Source: Escherichia coli
GTDB taxonomy: Bacteria; Pseudomonadota; Gammaproteobacteria; Enterobacterales; Enterobacteriaceae
Length of the DNA stretch: 64,000 nt
NCBI RefSeq assembly: GCF_009931435.1
Contig: NZ_CP043414.1
Direction: 5' to 3' (one strand)
Shown in pieces: positions 42,001 through 48,000 of the stretch. Position numbers: made by a program. Position 1 is the stretch's first letter, and every line of letters starts with the position of its first letter.

Positions 42001-45000
42001 CCCTTCGGCATTGCGGATAACCAGCCGGAAATGCGTTCCCTGGTCATCTTCAATAAGCACATTGCGGTAAGCTGTTGTGACGGCAACCGCCTGTTCGCGT
42101 GAGAAAGGGCCTTCGGGCAATAAAACAGGGTGGCAGTCCGACATACCGGCTATTTTCCGATAAATTCAACGCTGGCGCCGGTGGCATTACCGTCAGCACC
42201 AACCGTGACGGTCACTTTGTCGTACGCACGGTCTTCAGGATTGAATACTTCAAACTCAACCTTATTGCCTTTTACTTCGTAAGAGCCAAAATCAGCGGTT
42301 TCTGTTGTTTCCTCGTCATATTCCCGGGCGTATGCCTGCCGGGCTGCCTGCAGGACGGAATCTTTATTAATAGTGGTCGTCTGTTTCGGGGAAAAACCGG
42401 CAAGTGATGTGACAAATTTCGGACAGACCTTCAGCATATCACCGCGGGTGAATTCCATTCGTACACCAAATGCCTGTAAAACGGACACATCACGCTCTGC
42501 TATGGAGTGAACGGCTTTTTTGACCATTTCCGGCGCCTGTCCGATTTCCACCTCAACAGCCCTGAATCCCGTCTGCTGATTACACATTTGTGATGTGGGG
42601 ATCAGGTTACCGTTAATACTGATACGGCTGCCCAGGAGCGTCTGTACGCCATTCGGGCATCCCTGCATCAGGCCGGTAATACCAATCGTGCCATTTTTCA
42701 GCATTACCAGCGCCTGACCATCTTCCGTCATGGTCTGACACCAGCCGTTTTTGACAGCCCAGTTGCCGGCGGAGGCGGAGAATGATGCCACAGTGAACAG
42801 CAGGGGAAAAAGAGCTCTGGTATTCATGACTGACCTCTGAAATGAACGTACGGTGTTATTGATAATGATGGAAGGTATGCAGTGACTGTTCAGGGAATGA
42901 CGTAGCCGTATATTTAGTTTTCTGTTCAACATATTGTCTCCATACCTGTCGGGACGGCTTTGGCAGGCCGGCGATCACAGGTTAAAGGTGTTGATAAGTT
43001 TATGGATGAAAGAGAAATGTGGCAGGGCGGAGATAAAACGCTCTTCAGCGACCAGACTGTGGATGTGGCCTCTCCGTTCAAACCGTTCTGATGTCAGGCT
43101 GACTGATTTGATATCTGCCAGAGGAAAGACCTGCAGTTTTCCCTTCTGTAACGCGATCAGATACCAGCTACCGCTGTAATAAATGAGCCGGCAGGGCTCC
43201 AGTGACGGATACCATCGCTCAGTCATCAGAGAGATGTGGATACACTGTCTTATTGCCAGGATGAGTTGCGAGAAACACTCGGGGAACGTTGCAGTGATAT
43301 CCGGCGCCGGTAGCCAGATAAGGCAGGGAGAGGGCTCCTGGTTGTCGGTAAGACAGGTTATCAGTCGTCCGTTCCGGAGCGGAAGTATCCGTGCGATCCC
43401 GGTATTCTGTATAAAAGAAAGCATTTCAGGGATCGCACCTGGGCTGCTCTGTCGTCTGAGGCTGTACCTGCCATTTCTGTACTCTAAATCCAGGTGAACC
43501 AGACGCTGATGAAAATCGCGCTGTAAAGTACGTTCTGTAACGCCAAATTCATCTGACAGTGTTTTTAGTGACAGAGATTCTCCGGCCATCAGTCGGCTGA
43601 TAATGAGTGATAAGCGAACCGCCAGGCGATCATGCCGGGAACGATTATCAGACATAGATGTGCACTCCGTAAGAAAACATCTTTTATTTCATGATGTTAT
43701 TATGCATCATGATGTTGAAAGGATGTGTCGCATCCGGATAATCAGGAATAAAATGCAGCAGAAAAAATATTCTTTTAATTATCTGATTTTTAAGCATGAT
43801 TTCATAAAAAGAAGAATGCTCGTTAATCCAGCGACACATCCTGTCGGCGTGAGTGTGTCAGAACAGACGCTCCCACAGTGTGATCAGCAGGTGGATAATG
43901 CGGTCCCGGGCTTTACGCAGAAGCTGTAACATCCAGGCCGGAAAACTGAAACGGGCAACGGCGACGTCAAAACTTTTCCCGATGGTTTCACCAAAAGTCT
44001 GTTGTGCGTGTTTCTGGGCCTGTTCAGAGCGGTTTTCTCCCCGGATATGTGAATACACCGCGCTGGTTGCCTGTGGTGGCAGTGCGTGGATCATCAGCGA
44101 CACAAACGCCGGAAGGTTCCAGCCGACAGGTGCAGCAACGGAGAGTACCGGAAATGATGAAGGGAACAGGGTTGCCACCCGGGCTGTAACCGTCGCCAGT
44201 GAGAGCGCCTGCTGACGGGACGGGCATTTTTCTGTGGCATTCCATTCTTCAGCAGGAAACACGCGATCGGCATGGCTGAGAACAAACAGAAAACGCGAGG
44301 GATCTGCGCCTTCATTCAGTAAAAACTGATGCATGGTAATGTCGGCGGCATACGCGCGTTCATCTGCCCGCAGGATCCAGATAATCAAATCCACTTCCGG
44401 CAGTAACTGACGGTAAAGCGCCCGGTATTCCTGATCATGTTGCGGCGTCTCTCCAATGCCGGGCAGATCGACCAGCGTCATTCTGCGTTCACCGATCTGC
44501 AGGGTAAGACGATGAGCCTGGCGGGTGCAGCCGTTCAGGGGATGCGTGGCACAGATATGGGACTGAAAAATAGCATTACACAGGCTACTTTTGCCGGTGC
44601 CGGATTTACCCATAATGCCAATCACGGGTTCGTAATGAATAACGCTGTGGAGATGTTCAAGAATTTTCTGACGAATTTCTTCAGGAAGAAACGTCAGATA
44701 TGATTTCACTTGTGCGGAGAGGGAAGAATGGCTGAATGACATACCGGTATCCTGTTGATTTCACTGAACCGGATCACACTAATCCGGTTTATCATTCAGG
44801 TAATATGGGCGTGAAAAATGATGGAATGTCTGAATTACGGACATTATTGTTAAAGTGTAATGGAGTATGGCGTCAGTTTTTCAGAACGGGAACTAATGAC
44901 ATACTGCTGTTTCAGGAGATGAGAGGATGACCGGACGTAAAAACAAATGTGTCAGAAAAAATTGTAACAATCAGGTTTTCTCAGTAAAAATGGCAGTGGA

Positions 45001-48000
45001 GAAAAGACTGTGCAGAAAACATTATGAGAGGTTTTGTGAGCTCAAAAAAAGAAGAGAGCAAAATCCTGTTCACAGATTAAATGAAGCATTGCCAAGAAAG
45101 GTAGAAGGCCCAAAAAGAAAGAGGAAATTAGTAAAAGAAAGAGAAATCATTAACAGCAGGACGAAACATAAACAGGAGCAGGGACCATCTCTGGCTGAAC
45201 TTAATAAAAAAGTTCGTGAGATACTGAAAACCCCGGCATGGAGAACGCTGGAAACGAGAATTCGAAGAAACGGTATCACATTTAATTCAAAAGCAGAGTT
45301 AGATGCGCTTTCTGAACTTTATGCAATTTATTCATGGGTTTCATATTGCAAACGGTGCGATAATTATTCTGTGTGGTTTTTGAATTGTCCGGATGTAAAT
45401 ATAAATCTTCATGTGTGCGAATGCCGGTCTTCTGAAAGCGATTGTTATCTGCCATCCCGTTTTATTATTCTTCCAGCTCCATTAAGGCAAAAAGTAAAAA
45501 GAAAATACTCTGCTAATTCGTCTGGGGTATCAGGACATAATGATTCAAAAAGTCTTTATAAGACAGTTTTGTCTGTTTGTGGTGGGAAAAGAGAAACCGA
45601 ATTGTTCTTTTATTCACTGCCAGTAAAGACTAATCATCATCCTTACTGGATTAAAAGTGGTGTGGTTAAAAGATTTCCTCCTGTTTTTGGTTTGTTGTTT
45701 TATGAACAGGAAAGATTAACAGGAGGTGTTTTTCGTTATGTGTTGATAAGGTTTTATAATACTTTTAAGGAGAATTTGTTTTTTGTTGAGATTGTCTCGT
45801 GCTGTTTTCTTGTTGAGCTTTTTCATGATATTGATTCGTTTTTTATAAATCAACGATTAAGTAAGCTGGAAAGTTTTATAGATAAGTGGAGGGAGGGTAA
45901 AGAAATCTGGATAAAAGCATATCTACAACTGATACATAATACATTGGGAATAACTGAAACAGAAAAACTCGTCAATCTATATAATTCATTTTTTACTGAT
46001 AAAGTGGTTATCTGGGATGAATCAGTAAAAAAAGTTAAGTGGATTTATGAGAAATAGTACCATTTAACTGAAAGCCACCATAACGTCTTTTTGACTACAT
46101 CCATGATAATGAGTCTCATTTTGATTTCGTTTTTTTGTTCCGGGAAATTTTCCGAACATCAGTGATAATGAGGGTTTTGTTGTTTTTGTTTCTGCAATGT
46201 TTGAGGGCTGTTCCTGGAGATGATTCGTTGCTTGTGAGCAAGAGGTGGTCCGCTTTACTGGACAAGTTTTGCATTTGTTGAGTGGTGAAATGGAAGTAAA
46301 AAGAGCCCCTTTCTGGCAATGACTGAAAAAGTCAGTAGCGTGTGACAGTAAAAACTAACATAAAGTGATTATCGTATGATTATGACAATGACTTATAACT
46401 TTTATGAAAAGAACAACAGAAACTATGAAACCATAGCAGATTCCTGAGACCATGTTTTTTGAGGTAGAGAAAATAATTCAAGAGTAAACCAGTTTGTTTT
46501 TTGATCAGTAAAGAACCATGCCTGATGTGAAAACGGGTAATCAACATTCAGTCTGCATGAGTGTCTGAGAATGTTGCTAATGTCGGTATGATACTATATA
46601 CACATATTTTACTAAGTATTTTTACTAAGCATTTCAGTAAGTGTTATACACGTATTTTCTACTAAGTGTTTTACCAGACATACACGTATTTTCATAAACA
46701 CTTCTACAAGTGTTTTCATTAAGTATTGTTATACACATTGCTTTGTCTGACACACATCCGGTTTAGTAAATCTTTACGTTAGCTAAAATCAGTTTAAAGC
46801 TGCTACAAAGCAATCTTTCCTGTTTAAGCAATCAAGATGACATTCTGTTTTTCTGAAGTTACGTTTAACCTTTTCTGAGTTTTTGTGTTTTTGGTCGTTA
46901 ACCGGAGAAAAGTATCTTTACGTAAAAACGCAAATCCGACTGAGATAACCTGGCGTGATTTACGGAGTGCTTACGACGATTTAGTTAAATGGTTTTATGG
47001 ATGATTTTGTAGCGATGAGGTTGATGAGATGATTAACTGGCCCTGGTGTTTTTTTTCTCAGAGCAAGGCTCTTTTCAGAAAAAGCGTGATGATTGGTTCT
47101 GGTGTTTTGATTCAGATGAGGTTTACGTTATCGATGGTTAATCGCTTTTATGGTGCGTAGTGAAACGTAACATTTTCAGGATGAGAAAATCGATTCTGAT
47201 GTTAGTGGTTTTTGTTCTTGGGGTGGGGTTATCTGTAAACAGGTTTTAAACGCGCTATTCGGCTCTGTGATTGAGTTGTGTGGTTAAGCTATAGGTTTTG
47301 GTGTTGTTGTTGATTCACAGCGCCAGAAATCGTTCTGATTGCGTTTTTGATGTTTTGTTTGCACGTTCTGTTGATCCGTTTCCCTTCTGACTTTTCTCGT
47401 CGTCCATGCCGTTTTTAAATTCATTTGCTGTTGTTGTGTTTTTTTACCATCTTTTCGTTTGTAGGGGATTCCATTTTTATCCGGAGTAGGTTGTGTTGCT
47501 CAATGGTGGGAGTTCGTAAAGTTTTACCGCGGTGATTAATGATGTGAAGTCAATCCAAATCAATGGAGATCTCTCATCATGAATCAACCAATACACAATG
47601 CTTACTGGTTATCCCGTTTTGAAAGTATTCTCAACAGTGCCCTGGCGCAACACCGTGCCGTCTCGTTAATCCGGGTGGATTTACGTTTCCCTGAGTATAT
47701 GCCTGCCACCATTATGGATACCGATTTAGATTCAGCGGTGATTTCTCGTTTTTTCGAATCCCTGAAAGCAAAAATTCAGGCTTACCAGCGACATAAACGA
47801 CGTGCCAACAAGCGTGTGCATGCAACCACTCTGCGTTATTTCTGGTGCCGGGAGTTCGGCAAGGAAAAAGGCAGGAAACATTATCACGTGATATTACTGC
47901 TCAACAAAGATACCTGGTGCTCGCCAGGGGATTTCACCGTTCCTTCTTCGCTGGCGACGCTGATCCAACTGGCATGGTGCAGTGCTCTGCATCTTGAGCC

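What the first reader, a model, noticed from the sequence alone, without database searches (positions are those of the whole stretch)
44927..46057. AT-rich 376-aa ORF with basic, Cys-rich N-terminus in the CP4-like remnant
Differs sharply in composition from the flanking CP4-type genes and has no recognisable family; N-terminus is highly basic with a Cys cluster (possible zinc ribbon or nucleic-acid binding). Sits where CP4-type elements carry variable cargo.
Basis: seen in the sequence. Interest (0 to 1): 0.5.

Follow-up and report, generated by a model that had tools for sequence, protein, structure and literature searches.

The report
Orphan zinc-finger protein in defence slot
This is a real, conserved gene for a protein of unknown fold with a small zinc finger at its front end; it occupies the spot in a family of E. 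coli genomic islands where related islands carry anti-phage weapons, so it is a plausible but unproven new immunity-type gene.

Summary
The 376-aa ORF (44927-46057, +) is real. It is 34.5% GC against about 50-53% in its neighbours, far longer than chance allows, and under purifying selection (dN/dS 0.32). It has no hit in Pfam, NCBIfam, PADLOC or the PDB, and no structural relative in the PDB or BFVD.

It has three parts:
- an invariant C-x4-C-x14-LC-x2-HY zinc module;
- a disordered basic arm;
- a mostly helical core of about 285 aa.

The family is tiny and confined to Enterobacterales islands. It was always found directly beside a YfjP-clade GTPase.

In E. coli this position holds one of three deeply diverged homologues:
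- type A, this gene;
- type B, 407 aa, with a zinc finger;
- type C, 310-333 aa, core only.

Together they account for about 96% of 2509 GTPase copies. They are exchanged as a cassette (44819 to about 46469) between flanks that are 78-95% identical.

In more distant islands the same slot holds Gabija, Septu, Lamassu-like and restriction-modification (RM) systems. In K-12 CP4-57 the wider yfjJ-yfjP interval holds AbpAB and RnlAB.

Best reading (0.4): a stand-alone conflict or defence protein in which the core does the work and the zinc finger is an accessory nucleic-acid-binding module. The function is inferred from position only.

The parts
44927..46057 (+). 376-aa ORF. 'Type A' allele of the slot gene; protein WP_001339473.1 in RefSeq, annotated as hypothetical.
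   Evidence: ORF listing. Annotated as a hypothetical protein in FORC064 and CFT073. dN/dS 0.32 against the 79%-identity allele. Chance test.
44948..45037 (+). Zinc-finger module, residues 8-37: C8-x4-C13-x14-L28-C29-x2-H32-Y33. C37 is conserved only within type A.
   Evidence: Invariant C, C, LC, HY in ten module copies from types A and B, the L019 protein and a duplicated copy in Salmonella (A5). AF2 pLDDT about 88, with short strands at residues 7 and 16 and a helix starting at residue 30.
45089..45202 (+). Basic, disordered linker, residues 55-92.
   Evidence: pI 10.7 with 12 K/R in 38 residues. pLDDT below 50 for residues 61-84. Poorly conserved and variable in length.
45203..46054 (+). 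Core domain, residues 93-376: mostly helical with two small hairpins. This is the only part shared by all allele types.
   Evidence: AF2 pLDDT mostly 80-93. hhalign against the type C short form: probability 92.7%, E = 4e-7 over residues 96-356. HMM hits to types B and C and to L019. Superfamily invariants R114, Y135, P183, E288.
44819..46469 (.). Exchangeable allele cassette: the gene, its 108-nt leader and a 412-nt type-specific non-coding tail.
   Evidence: Window against L016: 95% identity up to 44818, resuming from 46463/46599. All three types share 78-83% identity from about 46470 onward.
44743..44818 (.). Divergent control region shared by all allele types. It contains the palindrome AACCGGAT-N7-ATCCGGTT (44767-44789) and a TAATAT -10-like hexamer (44801-44806).
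   Evidence: Near-identical in types A, B and C in E. coli. Salmonella and Klebsiella have an analogous CCGG...CCGG palindrome plus GTAATATAG. Function as promoter and operator is inferred.
46058..46469 (.). Type-A-specific non-coding tail.
   Evidence: No ORF is conserved between the window and the L003 allele, which differ by frameshifting indels. No remnant of the type C neighbour gene. No Rfam hit and no terminator-like site.
43858..44742 (-). YfjP-family GTPase gene, divergently transcribed. It is the constant left-hand neighbour of the slot.
   Evidence: Annotation. Adjacent to a family member in every context examined.
47579..48310 (+). YfjJ/YagK ('inovirus Gp2 family') gene, the right-hand anchor of the interval.
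   Evidence: Annotation. Pfam YagK_YfjJ_C in related loci.

Best explanation
The ORF encodes a stand-alone 'conflict' protein, most likely an anti-phage or anti-mobile-element defence factor. It is carried in the defence-cargo slot of a CP4-57-like genomic island.

**Shown**
- It is a real gene under purifying selection.
- It has three parts: a CCCH zinc module, a basic disordered arm, and a helical core of about 285 aa with no known fold relative.
- It lies divergently next to the island's YfjP-type GTPase, inside a 1.65-kb cassette.
- The cassette is exchanged, between nearly identical flanks, for two other very distant homologues.
- The same position in related islands holds established defence systems.

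**Inferred**
- The core domain is the working part, because it is the only part present in all three allele types.
- The zinc finger and basic arm form an accessory module that tethers the core to nucleic acid (phage or element DNA or RNA).
- Expression comes from a promoter that is common to all alleles and overlapped by a conserved palindrome. The palindrome is probably bound by a conserved island regulator; the WYL-domain YfjR-like protein encoded in the opposite operon is the obvious candidate.
- The AT-rich composition suggests that H-NS keeps the gene low until it is induced.

What the core does biochemically is unknown. The conserved residues do not form a recognisable catalytic motif.
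For: **Real and selected**
-.

**Architecture**
-.

**Orphan status**
- No hit in Pfam, NCBIfam, PADLOC or the PDB.
- BFVD gives nothing.
- AFDB50 finds only Enterobacterales proteins, all but two unnamed.

**The slot is a defence hotspot**
- GajA+GajB in L041 and L042.
- PtuA+PtuB in L048.
- LmuA-like+LmuB in L045.
- Type III methyltransferase in L086.
- Type IIG RM plus specificity subunit in L036.
- IetA-like in L072.
- All lie immediately upstream of the GTPase and on the opposite strand, the same orientation as this ORF.
- K-12 CP4-57 has abpB-abpA-yfjM-rnlA-rnlB between yfjJ and yfjP. AbpAB is an experimentally shown defence system (PMC10732053).

**Cassette-type allelic replacement**
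- Flanks are 78-95% identical while the proteins are about 16-22% identical.
- The three types sum to 2401 of 2509 GTPase places in 5426 complete E. coli genomes.

**Dispensable for the island**
- One copy is split by an IS3-family insertion sequence (IS).
- Many related islands have an empty slot.

**Control region**
- It is shared by all types, so the promoter is not allele-specific.
- The neighbouring regulator matches WYL profiles.
Against: - There is no functional evidence of any kind. The defence inference rests on position only.
- There is no match to any of 5027 PADLOC models, for types A, B and C alike.
- Defence genes usually turn up in several unrelated contexts. This family was found only next to this GTPase clade. 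It is absent from phage records and IMG/VR, and occurs in a single plasmid record.
- Near-fixation of one superfamily in the slot (about 96%) looks more like a backbone gene than like hotspot cargo.
- Within a type the gene is highly conserved (95-99% DNA identity) and dN/dS is 0.32. There is no sign of a fast arms race within a type.
- No enzymatic motif or known effector fold was found.
Confidence: 0.4

Rival explanations
1. **Island regulator or maintenance factor.** The protein is a DNA-binding protein that controls island genes (the divergent GTPase operon, excision or replication). The zinc finger would be its DNA-binding head, and the variable core would act as a sensor or oligomerisation domain, loosely like the Stl master repressors of staphylococcal pathogenicity islands.
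For: - Divergent arrangement with the long GTPase-WYL-DUF932-antirestriction-RadC-CbtA operon.
- Basic N-terminus with a conserved zinc module.
- A homologue is present in about 96% of islands of this clade, as expected of a backbone gene.
- Strict linkage to one GTPase clade across genera.
Against: - The control region with its palindrome is the same for alleles that share only about 16-22% identity, and for type C, which has no zinc finger at all. The operator therefore does not co-vary with the protein.
- The iteron array and the Gp2-gene leader lie outside the cassette and stay constant when the allele changes.
- Many related islands lack the gene altogether and have the backbone gene abutting the GTPase.
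- IS-disrupted copies persist.
Confidence: 0.25
2. **Another kind of conflict gene.** The protein is an anti-defence or establishment protein that helps the island, or a helper element, enter new hosts. Alternatively it is an addiction or toxin-like module that penalises loss of the island.
For: - The island backbone already carries antirestriction (ArdB/KlcA-type), RadC/JAB and CbtA/CbeA toxin-antitoxin genes. Counter-defence and addiction functions are therefore part of its repertoire.
- The low GC content is compatible with a gene kept silent because expression is costly; that link is an inference, not a result.
- Deep allelic types are compatible with matching different targets.
Against: - Types A and B have no co-transcribed small partner or antitoxin candidate. 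The tail has no conserved ORF and no Rfam RNA.
- The type C neighbour proved to be a general backbone gene, not a dedicated partner.
- Known anti-defence genes of this island lie in the other operon.
Confidence: 0.15
3. **Selfish nuclease or degenerate homing-type gene.** The zinc module resembles, from my recollection only, the C...C...LCxxHY modules placed in front of HNH endonucleases. The cassette could then spread by its own nuclease activity.
For: - Cassette-like replacement with sharp boundaries.
- One distant AFDB relative is labelled 'HNH endonuclease' by its submitter.
- A Gordonia phage HNH endonuclease appears among the non-significant BFVD hits.
Against: - No member has an HNH, GIY-YIG, LAGLIDADG or other nuclease domain in Pfam.
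- There is no fold match to His-Me finger nucleases.
- Type C lacks the zinc module.
- tblastn of the module against 50,697 phage records gave nothing significant.
Confidence: 0.05

Closest known systems
AbpAB (yfjL/yfjK) and RnlAB of E. coli K-12 cryptic prophage CP4-57
   Same: They occupy the homologous interval between the YfjJ-family gene and the YfjP-family GTPase gene of a CP4-type island. AbpAB is an experimentally shown abortive-infection defence (PMC10732053). RnlAB as an anti-phage toxin-antitoxin pair is established knowledge.
   Different: There is no sequence or domain similarity: the superfamily HMM finds nothing in CP4-57. Those are two-gene systems with recognisable nuclease, helicase or RNase domains, whereas this is a single gene with no recognisable effector. 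The yfjJ module also has the opposite orientation in this island.
Gabija, Septu, Lamassu-like and RM cargo in the same slot of other Enterobacterales CP4-like islands
   Same: Same position (immediately upstream of the GTPase) and same strand relation (divergent).
   Different: Those systems match PADLOC models at E values of 1e-48 and far below for the main components (LmuA-like only 1.5e-7) and occur in many other genomic contexts. This family matches none and was found only here.
Stl-type master repressors of staphylococcal pathogenicity islands (comparison from established knowledge)
   Same: Island-encoded, divergently transcribed from the main operon, with a DNA-binding head plus a variable C-terminal domain, and very divergent between otherwise similar islands.
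   Different: There is no helix-turn-helix (HTH). The operator-like palindrome does not change with the allele, and type C has no DNA-binding head. The gene is absent from many related islands.
Small treble-clef or zinc-ribbon nucleic-acid-binding fingers, including C...C...LCxxHY modules that I recall preceding HNH endonucleases in actinophages, and the P2 Ogr / P4 Delta zinc-finger activators
   Same: Four conserved ligands (C, C, C, H). In the AF2 model two sit on short strands and two at a helix start, followed by a basic helix. The module is mobile: it is duplicated in Salmonella P0020/P0043 and absent in type C.
   Different: There is no significant sequence match to any Pfam, PDB or phage protein. 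The resemblance is a recalled lead, not a tested membership.

Membership tests
Known anti-phage defence protein families (PADLOC-DB v2.0.0) | Significant match to a defence-system HMM | tested here: not met
   0 families at E <= 1 for type A. 0 at E <= 0.1 for types B and C, the L016 pair and the L019 protein.
Defence-hotspot cargo (operational class) | Lies in a slot that holds established defence systems in related elements | tested here: met
   GajAB, PtuAB, LmuA-like/LmuB and RM genes between the backbone gene and the GTPase in L036, L041, L042, L045, L048 and L086. AbpAB and RnlAB in K-12.
Defence-hotspot cargo (operational class) | Also found in other, unrelated genomic contexts | tested here: not met
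   Every locus with enough flanking sequence placed it next to the YfjP-clade GTPase (or, in L010, the WYL regulator). None in phage records or IMG/VR; one plasmid record.
Defence-hotspot cargo (operational class) | Protects cells against phage when expressed | not testable with these tools
   Needs phage challenge assays.
Treble-clef / zinc-ribbon zinc finger | Four conserved metal ligands, two near a turn between short strands and two at the N-terminus of a helix | tested here: met
   C-x4-C-x14-LC-x2-H invariant in 10 module copies. AF2 places strands at residues 7 and 16 and a helix from residue 30, with pLDDT about 88.
Treble-clef / zinc-ribbon zinc finger | Binds zinc; binds nucleic acid | not testable with these tools
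   Needs metal analysis and binding assays.
HNH / His-Me finger endonucleases | HNH catalytic core detectable by profile or fold | tested here: not met
Stl-like island master repressor | Operator co-varies with the repressor allele, and the protein has a recognisable DNA-binding domain in all members | tested here: not met
   Same 76-nt control region for types A, B and C. Type C has no zinc finger or other detected DNA-binding domain.
Replication initiator with adjacent iterons | Iterons belong to, and change with, the initiator gene | tested here: not met
   The iteron array at 46590-46745 lies outside the cassette. It is about 90% identical in an island carrying a type C allele. All three types share the DNA from about 46470 onward.
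Toxin-antitoxin pair | Adjacent co-transcribed cognate partner gene or RNA | tested here: not met
   No conserved ORF in the leader or tail. No Rfam hit. The type C neighbour is a general backbone gene.

The most novel reading that the evidence does not exclude
The three allele types (A, B, C) are a previously unrecognised single-gene immunity family with a new protein fold. The family is carried by about a third of E. coli genomes (1871 of 5426 complete genomes have the host island clade). Each deep allele would have a different target specificity, and the zinc finger would be an optional nucleic-acid-sensing head.
Probability: 0.33. Interest if true: 0.7.

Novelty: new variant of a known kind. 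Interest (0 to 1): 0.45.

Why it matters
If the slot gene is a defence or other conflict factor, it adds a fold-novel, single-gene system that current defence finders miss. It is very common in pathogenic and commensal E. coli, including CFT073, and also occurs in Salmonella and Klebsiella.

The three deep allele types, sitting between near-identical flanks, offer a natural experiment on specificity.

Whatever the function, the analysis defines the architecture of a widespread island family: backbone gene, cargo slot, then YfjP GTPase. It also shows that this slot is a defence hotspot across Enterobacterales, which makes its uncharacterised occupants easy to mine.

Tried and rejected
**1. Replication initiator acting on the downstream iterons: rejected.** The iteron array (46590-46745) lies outside the exchangeable cassette and is unchanged in islands with a different allele.

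**2. Stl-like autoregulated repressor: weakened.** The promoter and palindrome region is identical for all allele types.

**3. The convergent 262-284-aa gene of type C as a dedicated DNA-binding partner replacing the zinc finger: rejected.**
- Iterative HMM searches show it is a general backbone gene, found directly upstream of the GTPase in 25 or more of 80 islands.
- Its ribbon-helix-helix (RHH) match is not significant (E = 0.065-0.27).

**4. Remnant of that gene in the type A or B tails:** none.

**5. Upstream leader peptide overlapping the ATG (ATGA):** not conserved in the 79% allele, which has a 1-nt indel.

**6. Small ORF or RNA in the 412-nt tail.**
- There are frameshifting indels between alleles.
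- There is no Rfam hit and no terminator-like site.

**7. Homology to K-12 CP4-57 proteins, including the 318-aa YfjH, or to anything else in the window:** none.

**8. Extending the zinc module to other protein families.** The profile search returned only short fragments, tblastn against phages was non-significant, and a regex over all fetched loci found only family members. The recalled link to HNH-associated modules therefore stays untested.

**9. First AF2 run with 8 sequences:** too poor to use (pLDDT 52.8). The 18-sequence run was used instead.

**10. Literature.** No paper mentions WP_001339473. Searches on YfjP/YeeP/YkfA and on E. coli defence islands gave nothing specific to this gene.

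
Full report
**1. Observation**

An AGGAG lies 8 nt upstream.
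- It is 34.5% GC. The GTPase gene to its left is 53% and the YfjJ/Gp2 gene to its right is 50%.
- With the ORF's own composition, a 376-codon stop-free run has probability about 7e-15.
- In 500 shuffles of the AT-rich block the longest open run was 162 codons, against 385 observed.
- Against an allele with 79% protein identity, dN = 0.11 and dS = 0.34, giving dN/dS 0.32.
- It is therefore a real gene under purifying selection.
- RefSeq annotates it as a hypothetical protein, WP_001339473.1, in FORC064, CFT073 and others.

**2. Location**

- The window matches a selC-associated composite island of about 50 kb. tRNA-Sec and the integrase lie beyond the window's right end.
- The gene lies between two blocks:
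  - a leftward operon: YfjP-family GTPase, WYL/HTH regulator, DUF905, DUF932, antirestriction, RadC/JAB, DUF987, CbeA/CbtA;
  - a rightward block: 1.5 kb without genes, then YfjJ/'inovirus Gp2', a hypothetical gene, and AlpA.

**3. The protein**

- No profile library recognises it:
  - Pfam: nothing, even at E <= 10, for it or any of 18 relatives;
  - NCBIfam: none;
  - PADLOC: none;
  - PHROGs: one hit at E = 0.097;
  - PDB sequences: none with a family profile.
- An exhaustive HMMER scan of 1.84 billion representative proteins found 19 hits, mostly fragments.
- Word-indexed searches of 5.8 billion proteins found 4 clusters with the single sequence and 27 with a profile. All were E. coli, Salmonella, Klebsiella or Atlantibacter proteins, or unnamed metagenomic ones, and all were 'hypothetical'.
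- The alignment and AlphaFold model (18 sequences, mean pLDDT 78.8, pTM 0.68) show three parts:
  - Residues 8-37: C8-x4-C13-x14-L-C29-x2-H32-Y. This is invariant in ten copies of the module from four divergent protein types, including a duplicated copy in Salmonella.
  - In the model, C8 and C13 sit on short strands and C29/H32 at the start of a helix (pLDDT about 88). That is the geometry of a treble-clef-type zinc finger. C37 is conserved only within type A.
  - Residues 55-92: a disordered, lysine- and arginine-rich arm with pI 10.7.
  - Residues 93-376: a mostly helical core with two small hairpins and pLDDT mostly 80-93.
- The mid-protein cysteines of the E. coli copy are not conserved.
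- Fold searches found no relative:
  - BFVD: nothing at E <= 0.001;
  - AFDB50: only Enterobacterales proteins, all uncharacterised apart from two submitter labels, 'reverse transcriptase' and 'HNH endonuclease'. Neither label is backed by any domain hit here.
- Residues conserved over the whole superfamily are R114, Y135, P183 and E288. W105, L210, Y211, P252, L256, E260, R263 and L287 are nearly conserved. These do not form a recognisable catalytic motif.

**4. Context elsewhere**

- Every relative with enough flanking sequence sits beside a YfjP-type GTPase. It is usually divergent with a 93-184-nt spacer. After a gene-poor 1.4-1.6 kb come a YagK/YfjJ gene and AlpA.
- In one short metagenomic contig (L010) the divergent neighbour is the WYL regulator.
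- One Trabulsiella relative lies upstream on the same strand.
- The GTPases of these loci are about 50% identical while the slot proteins are 30-36% identical.

**5. The slot in E. coli is polymorphic but always homologous**

- An Enterobacteriaceae MAG (L016) is 95% identical to the window up to 44818, 76 nt from the GTPase ATG. It is 78-90% identical again from 46463/46599. Between those points it carries different DNA.
- Five E. coli genomes sampled across the GTPase identity range showed the same pattern.
- Three cassette types exist:
  - Type A: this 376-aa gene.
  - Type B: 407 aa, zinc finger plus core, HMM E = 5.5e-39.
  - Type C: 310-333 aa, core only. HMM E = 1e-10 to 9e-9; hhalign probability 92.7%, E = 4e-7.
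- From about window 46470 to the Gp2 gene, all three types share 78-83% identical DNA. The type A cassette is therefore 44819 to about 46469.
- Counts among 5426 complete E. coli genomes:

| Query | Genomes | Places |
|---|---|---|
| GTPase clade | 1871 | 2509 |
| Type A | 462 | 516 |
| Type B | 976 | 1069 |
| Type C | about 743 | 816 |

- The three types sum to 2401 places, or 96% of the GTPase copies. Adjacency was checked only in the sampled loci.
- Within type A, 461 of 462 genomes are at least 95% identical in DNA.

**6. The slot is a defence hotspot**

- In 80 loci from other species retrieved with the GTPase, superfamily members occur only next to GTPases at least 49% identical to this one.
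- Next to more distant GTPases, the gene immediately upstream on the opposite strand is often a known defence gene:
  - GajA+GajB (L041, L042);
  - PtuA+PtuB (L048);
  - LmuA-like+LmuB (L045);
  - type III methyltransferase (L086);
  - type IIG RM plus specificity subunit (L036);
  - IetA-like (L072);
  - candidate PDC-S05 (L028).
- The 262-284-aa gene that lies convergent to the type C gene at first looked like a partner. It is a general backbone gene, found directly upstream of and co-directional with the GTPase in 25 or more of the 80 islands.
- Where defence genes are present, they lie between that backbone gene and the GTPase.
- The general plan is therefore: backbone gene, slot (empty or cargo), GTPase.
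- In K-12 CP4-57 the interval between yfjJ and yfjP holds abpB-abpA-yfjM-rnlA-rnlB. AbpAB is a demonstrated abortive-infection defence (PMC10732053).

**7. Control region**

- The 76 nt next to the GTPase ATG are the same in types A, B and C. They contain a perfect palindrome, AACCGGAT-N7-ATCCGGTT (44767-44789), followed by TAATAT (44801-44806).
- Salmonella and Klebsiella elements have an analogous CCGG...CCGG palindrome and GTAATATAG.
- Expression is therefore probably governed by something common to the islands, not by the slot protein.
- The adjacent regulator matches WYL profiles. By established knowledge, WYL regulators such as BrxR and CapW control defence loci. This link is inference.

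**8. Interpretation**

- The best-supported reading (confidence 0.4) is a stand-alone conflict or defence protein.
- The core is the working part, and the zinc finger and basic arm form an optional nucleic-acid-binding head.

*For:*
- the position and orientation within a demonstrated defence hotspot;
- cassette exchange of deep alleles between conserved flanks;
- dispensability, shown by IS-disrupted copies and empty slots;
- AT-rich composition;
- a shared, regulated promoter.

*Against:*
- no functional data and no match to known defence models;
- the family occurs in a single context, with near-fixation in its clade;
- it is well conserved within each type;
- it has no recognisable effector chemistry.

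*Rivals:*
- an island regulator or maintenance protein (0.25), weakened by the allele-independent operator, the iterons lying outside the cassette, and the finger-less type C;
- an anti-defence or addiction function (0.15);
- a selfish nuclease (0.05), with no nuclease core detected.

**9. Novelty and score**

- The protein family and its fold are undescribed. The kind of thing it most likely is, cargo in an island defence slot, is known.
- I rate it a new variant of a known kind, with interest 0.45.
- The most novel reading not excluded is a new fold-novel single-gene immunity family with three specificity types, carried by about a third of E. coli. I give this probability about 0.33 and interest 0.7 if true.

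Noticed in passing
window 46590-46745: Iteron-like array: ATACACRTATTTT at 46598, 46646 and 46680, a shorter ATACACATTG at 46731, and ACTAAGYRTTT units between them. It lies in the gene-free 1.1 kb upstream of the YfjJ/'inovirus Gp2' gene. It is outside the allele cassette and about 90% conserved in an island with a different slot allele. It is a candidate origin or regulator-binding array for the Gp2-like (rolling-circle Rep-like) protein.
   Followed up: partly
window 44767-44789 and 44801-44806: A perfect palindrome, AACCGGAT-N7-ATCCGGTT, followed by a TAATAT -10-like hexamer, in the divergent GTPase/slot control region. It is conserved across all three slot alleles, with an analogous palindrome in Salmonella and Klebsiella. 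It is a likely operator for a conserved island regulator; the WYL-domain YfjR-like protein at 42975-43655(-) is a candidate.
   Followed up: partly
L016:4072-4911(+), L098:6421-7230(-), and about 25 of loci L016-L095 just upstream of the GTPase: An unannotated backbone family of 260-380 aa with a PEW..AAFWF motif, a W.W.Y motif and a C-terminal RHH-like tail (Pfam RHH_1 only E = 0.065-0.27). It sits immediately upstream of and co-directional with the YfjP GTPase in many Enterobacterales islands and marks the other edge of the defence slot. It is missing from type A and type B islands.
   Followed up: partly
loci L036, L041, L042, L045, L048, L086 (about 1-5700, minus strand): Complete Gabija (GajA+GajB) and Septu (PtuA+PtuB), Lamassu-like (LmuA-like+LmuB), and type III and type IIG RM genes. 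They are inserted between the backbone gene and the YfjP-type GTPase in Klebsiella, Citrobacter, Escherichia sp., Photorhabdus and Winslowiella islands. This is a clean, minable defence hotspot. Several occupants had no PADLOC hit: L074 (1213 aa), L044 (581 aa) and the L072 Hsp70-like protein (830 aa).
   Followed up: partly
window 46097-46191: Two 36-nt direct repeats (75% identical, 59 nt apart), each containing GATAATGAG, directly after the ORF's stop in the type-A-specific tail. The first contains the small palindrome ATGAG-T-CTCAT. Their purpose is unknown.
   Followed up: no
window 50384-50895 (-): A ProQ/FinO-family gene split into two ORFs of 113 and 57 aa. It is annotated as frameshifted in the near-identical FORC064 genome.
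   Followed up: no
window 51619-52053 (+) and onward to about 59600: AT-rich cargo block: an H-NS-family paralogue, a frameshifted dGTPase-family gene, IS3, a thymidylate synthase with an adjacent hypothetical gene, a 360-aa XRE-family protein and a MazG-like protein. Further on there is a DEAD/DEAH helicase plus type I RM and an AAA ATPase. The nucleotide-pool genes look like defence or counter-defence cargo. Annotation is taken from FORC064.
   Followed up: no
window 43858-44742 (-): The YfjP-family GTPase has a weak partial PADLOC match to LeoBC, the dynamin-like component of the Eleos system (E = 2e-6, residues 181-283 only).
   Followed up: no
L019:1827-6852: In Trabulsiella the homologue (417 aa, with an extra CxxC...CxxxC cluster) is co-directional with the GTPase. 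It follows AlpA and a 535-aa P-loop protein, which resembles the K-12 alpA-yfjI order. The divergent orientation is therefore not obligatory.
   Followed up: partly
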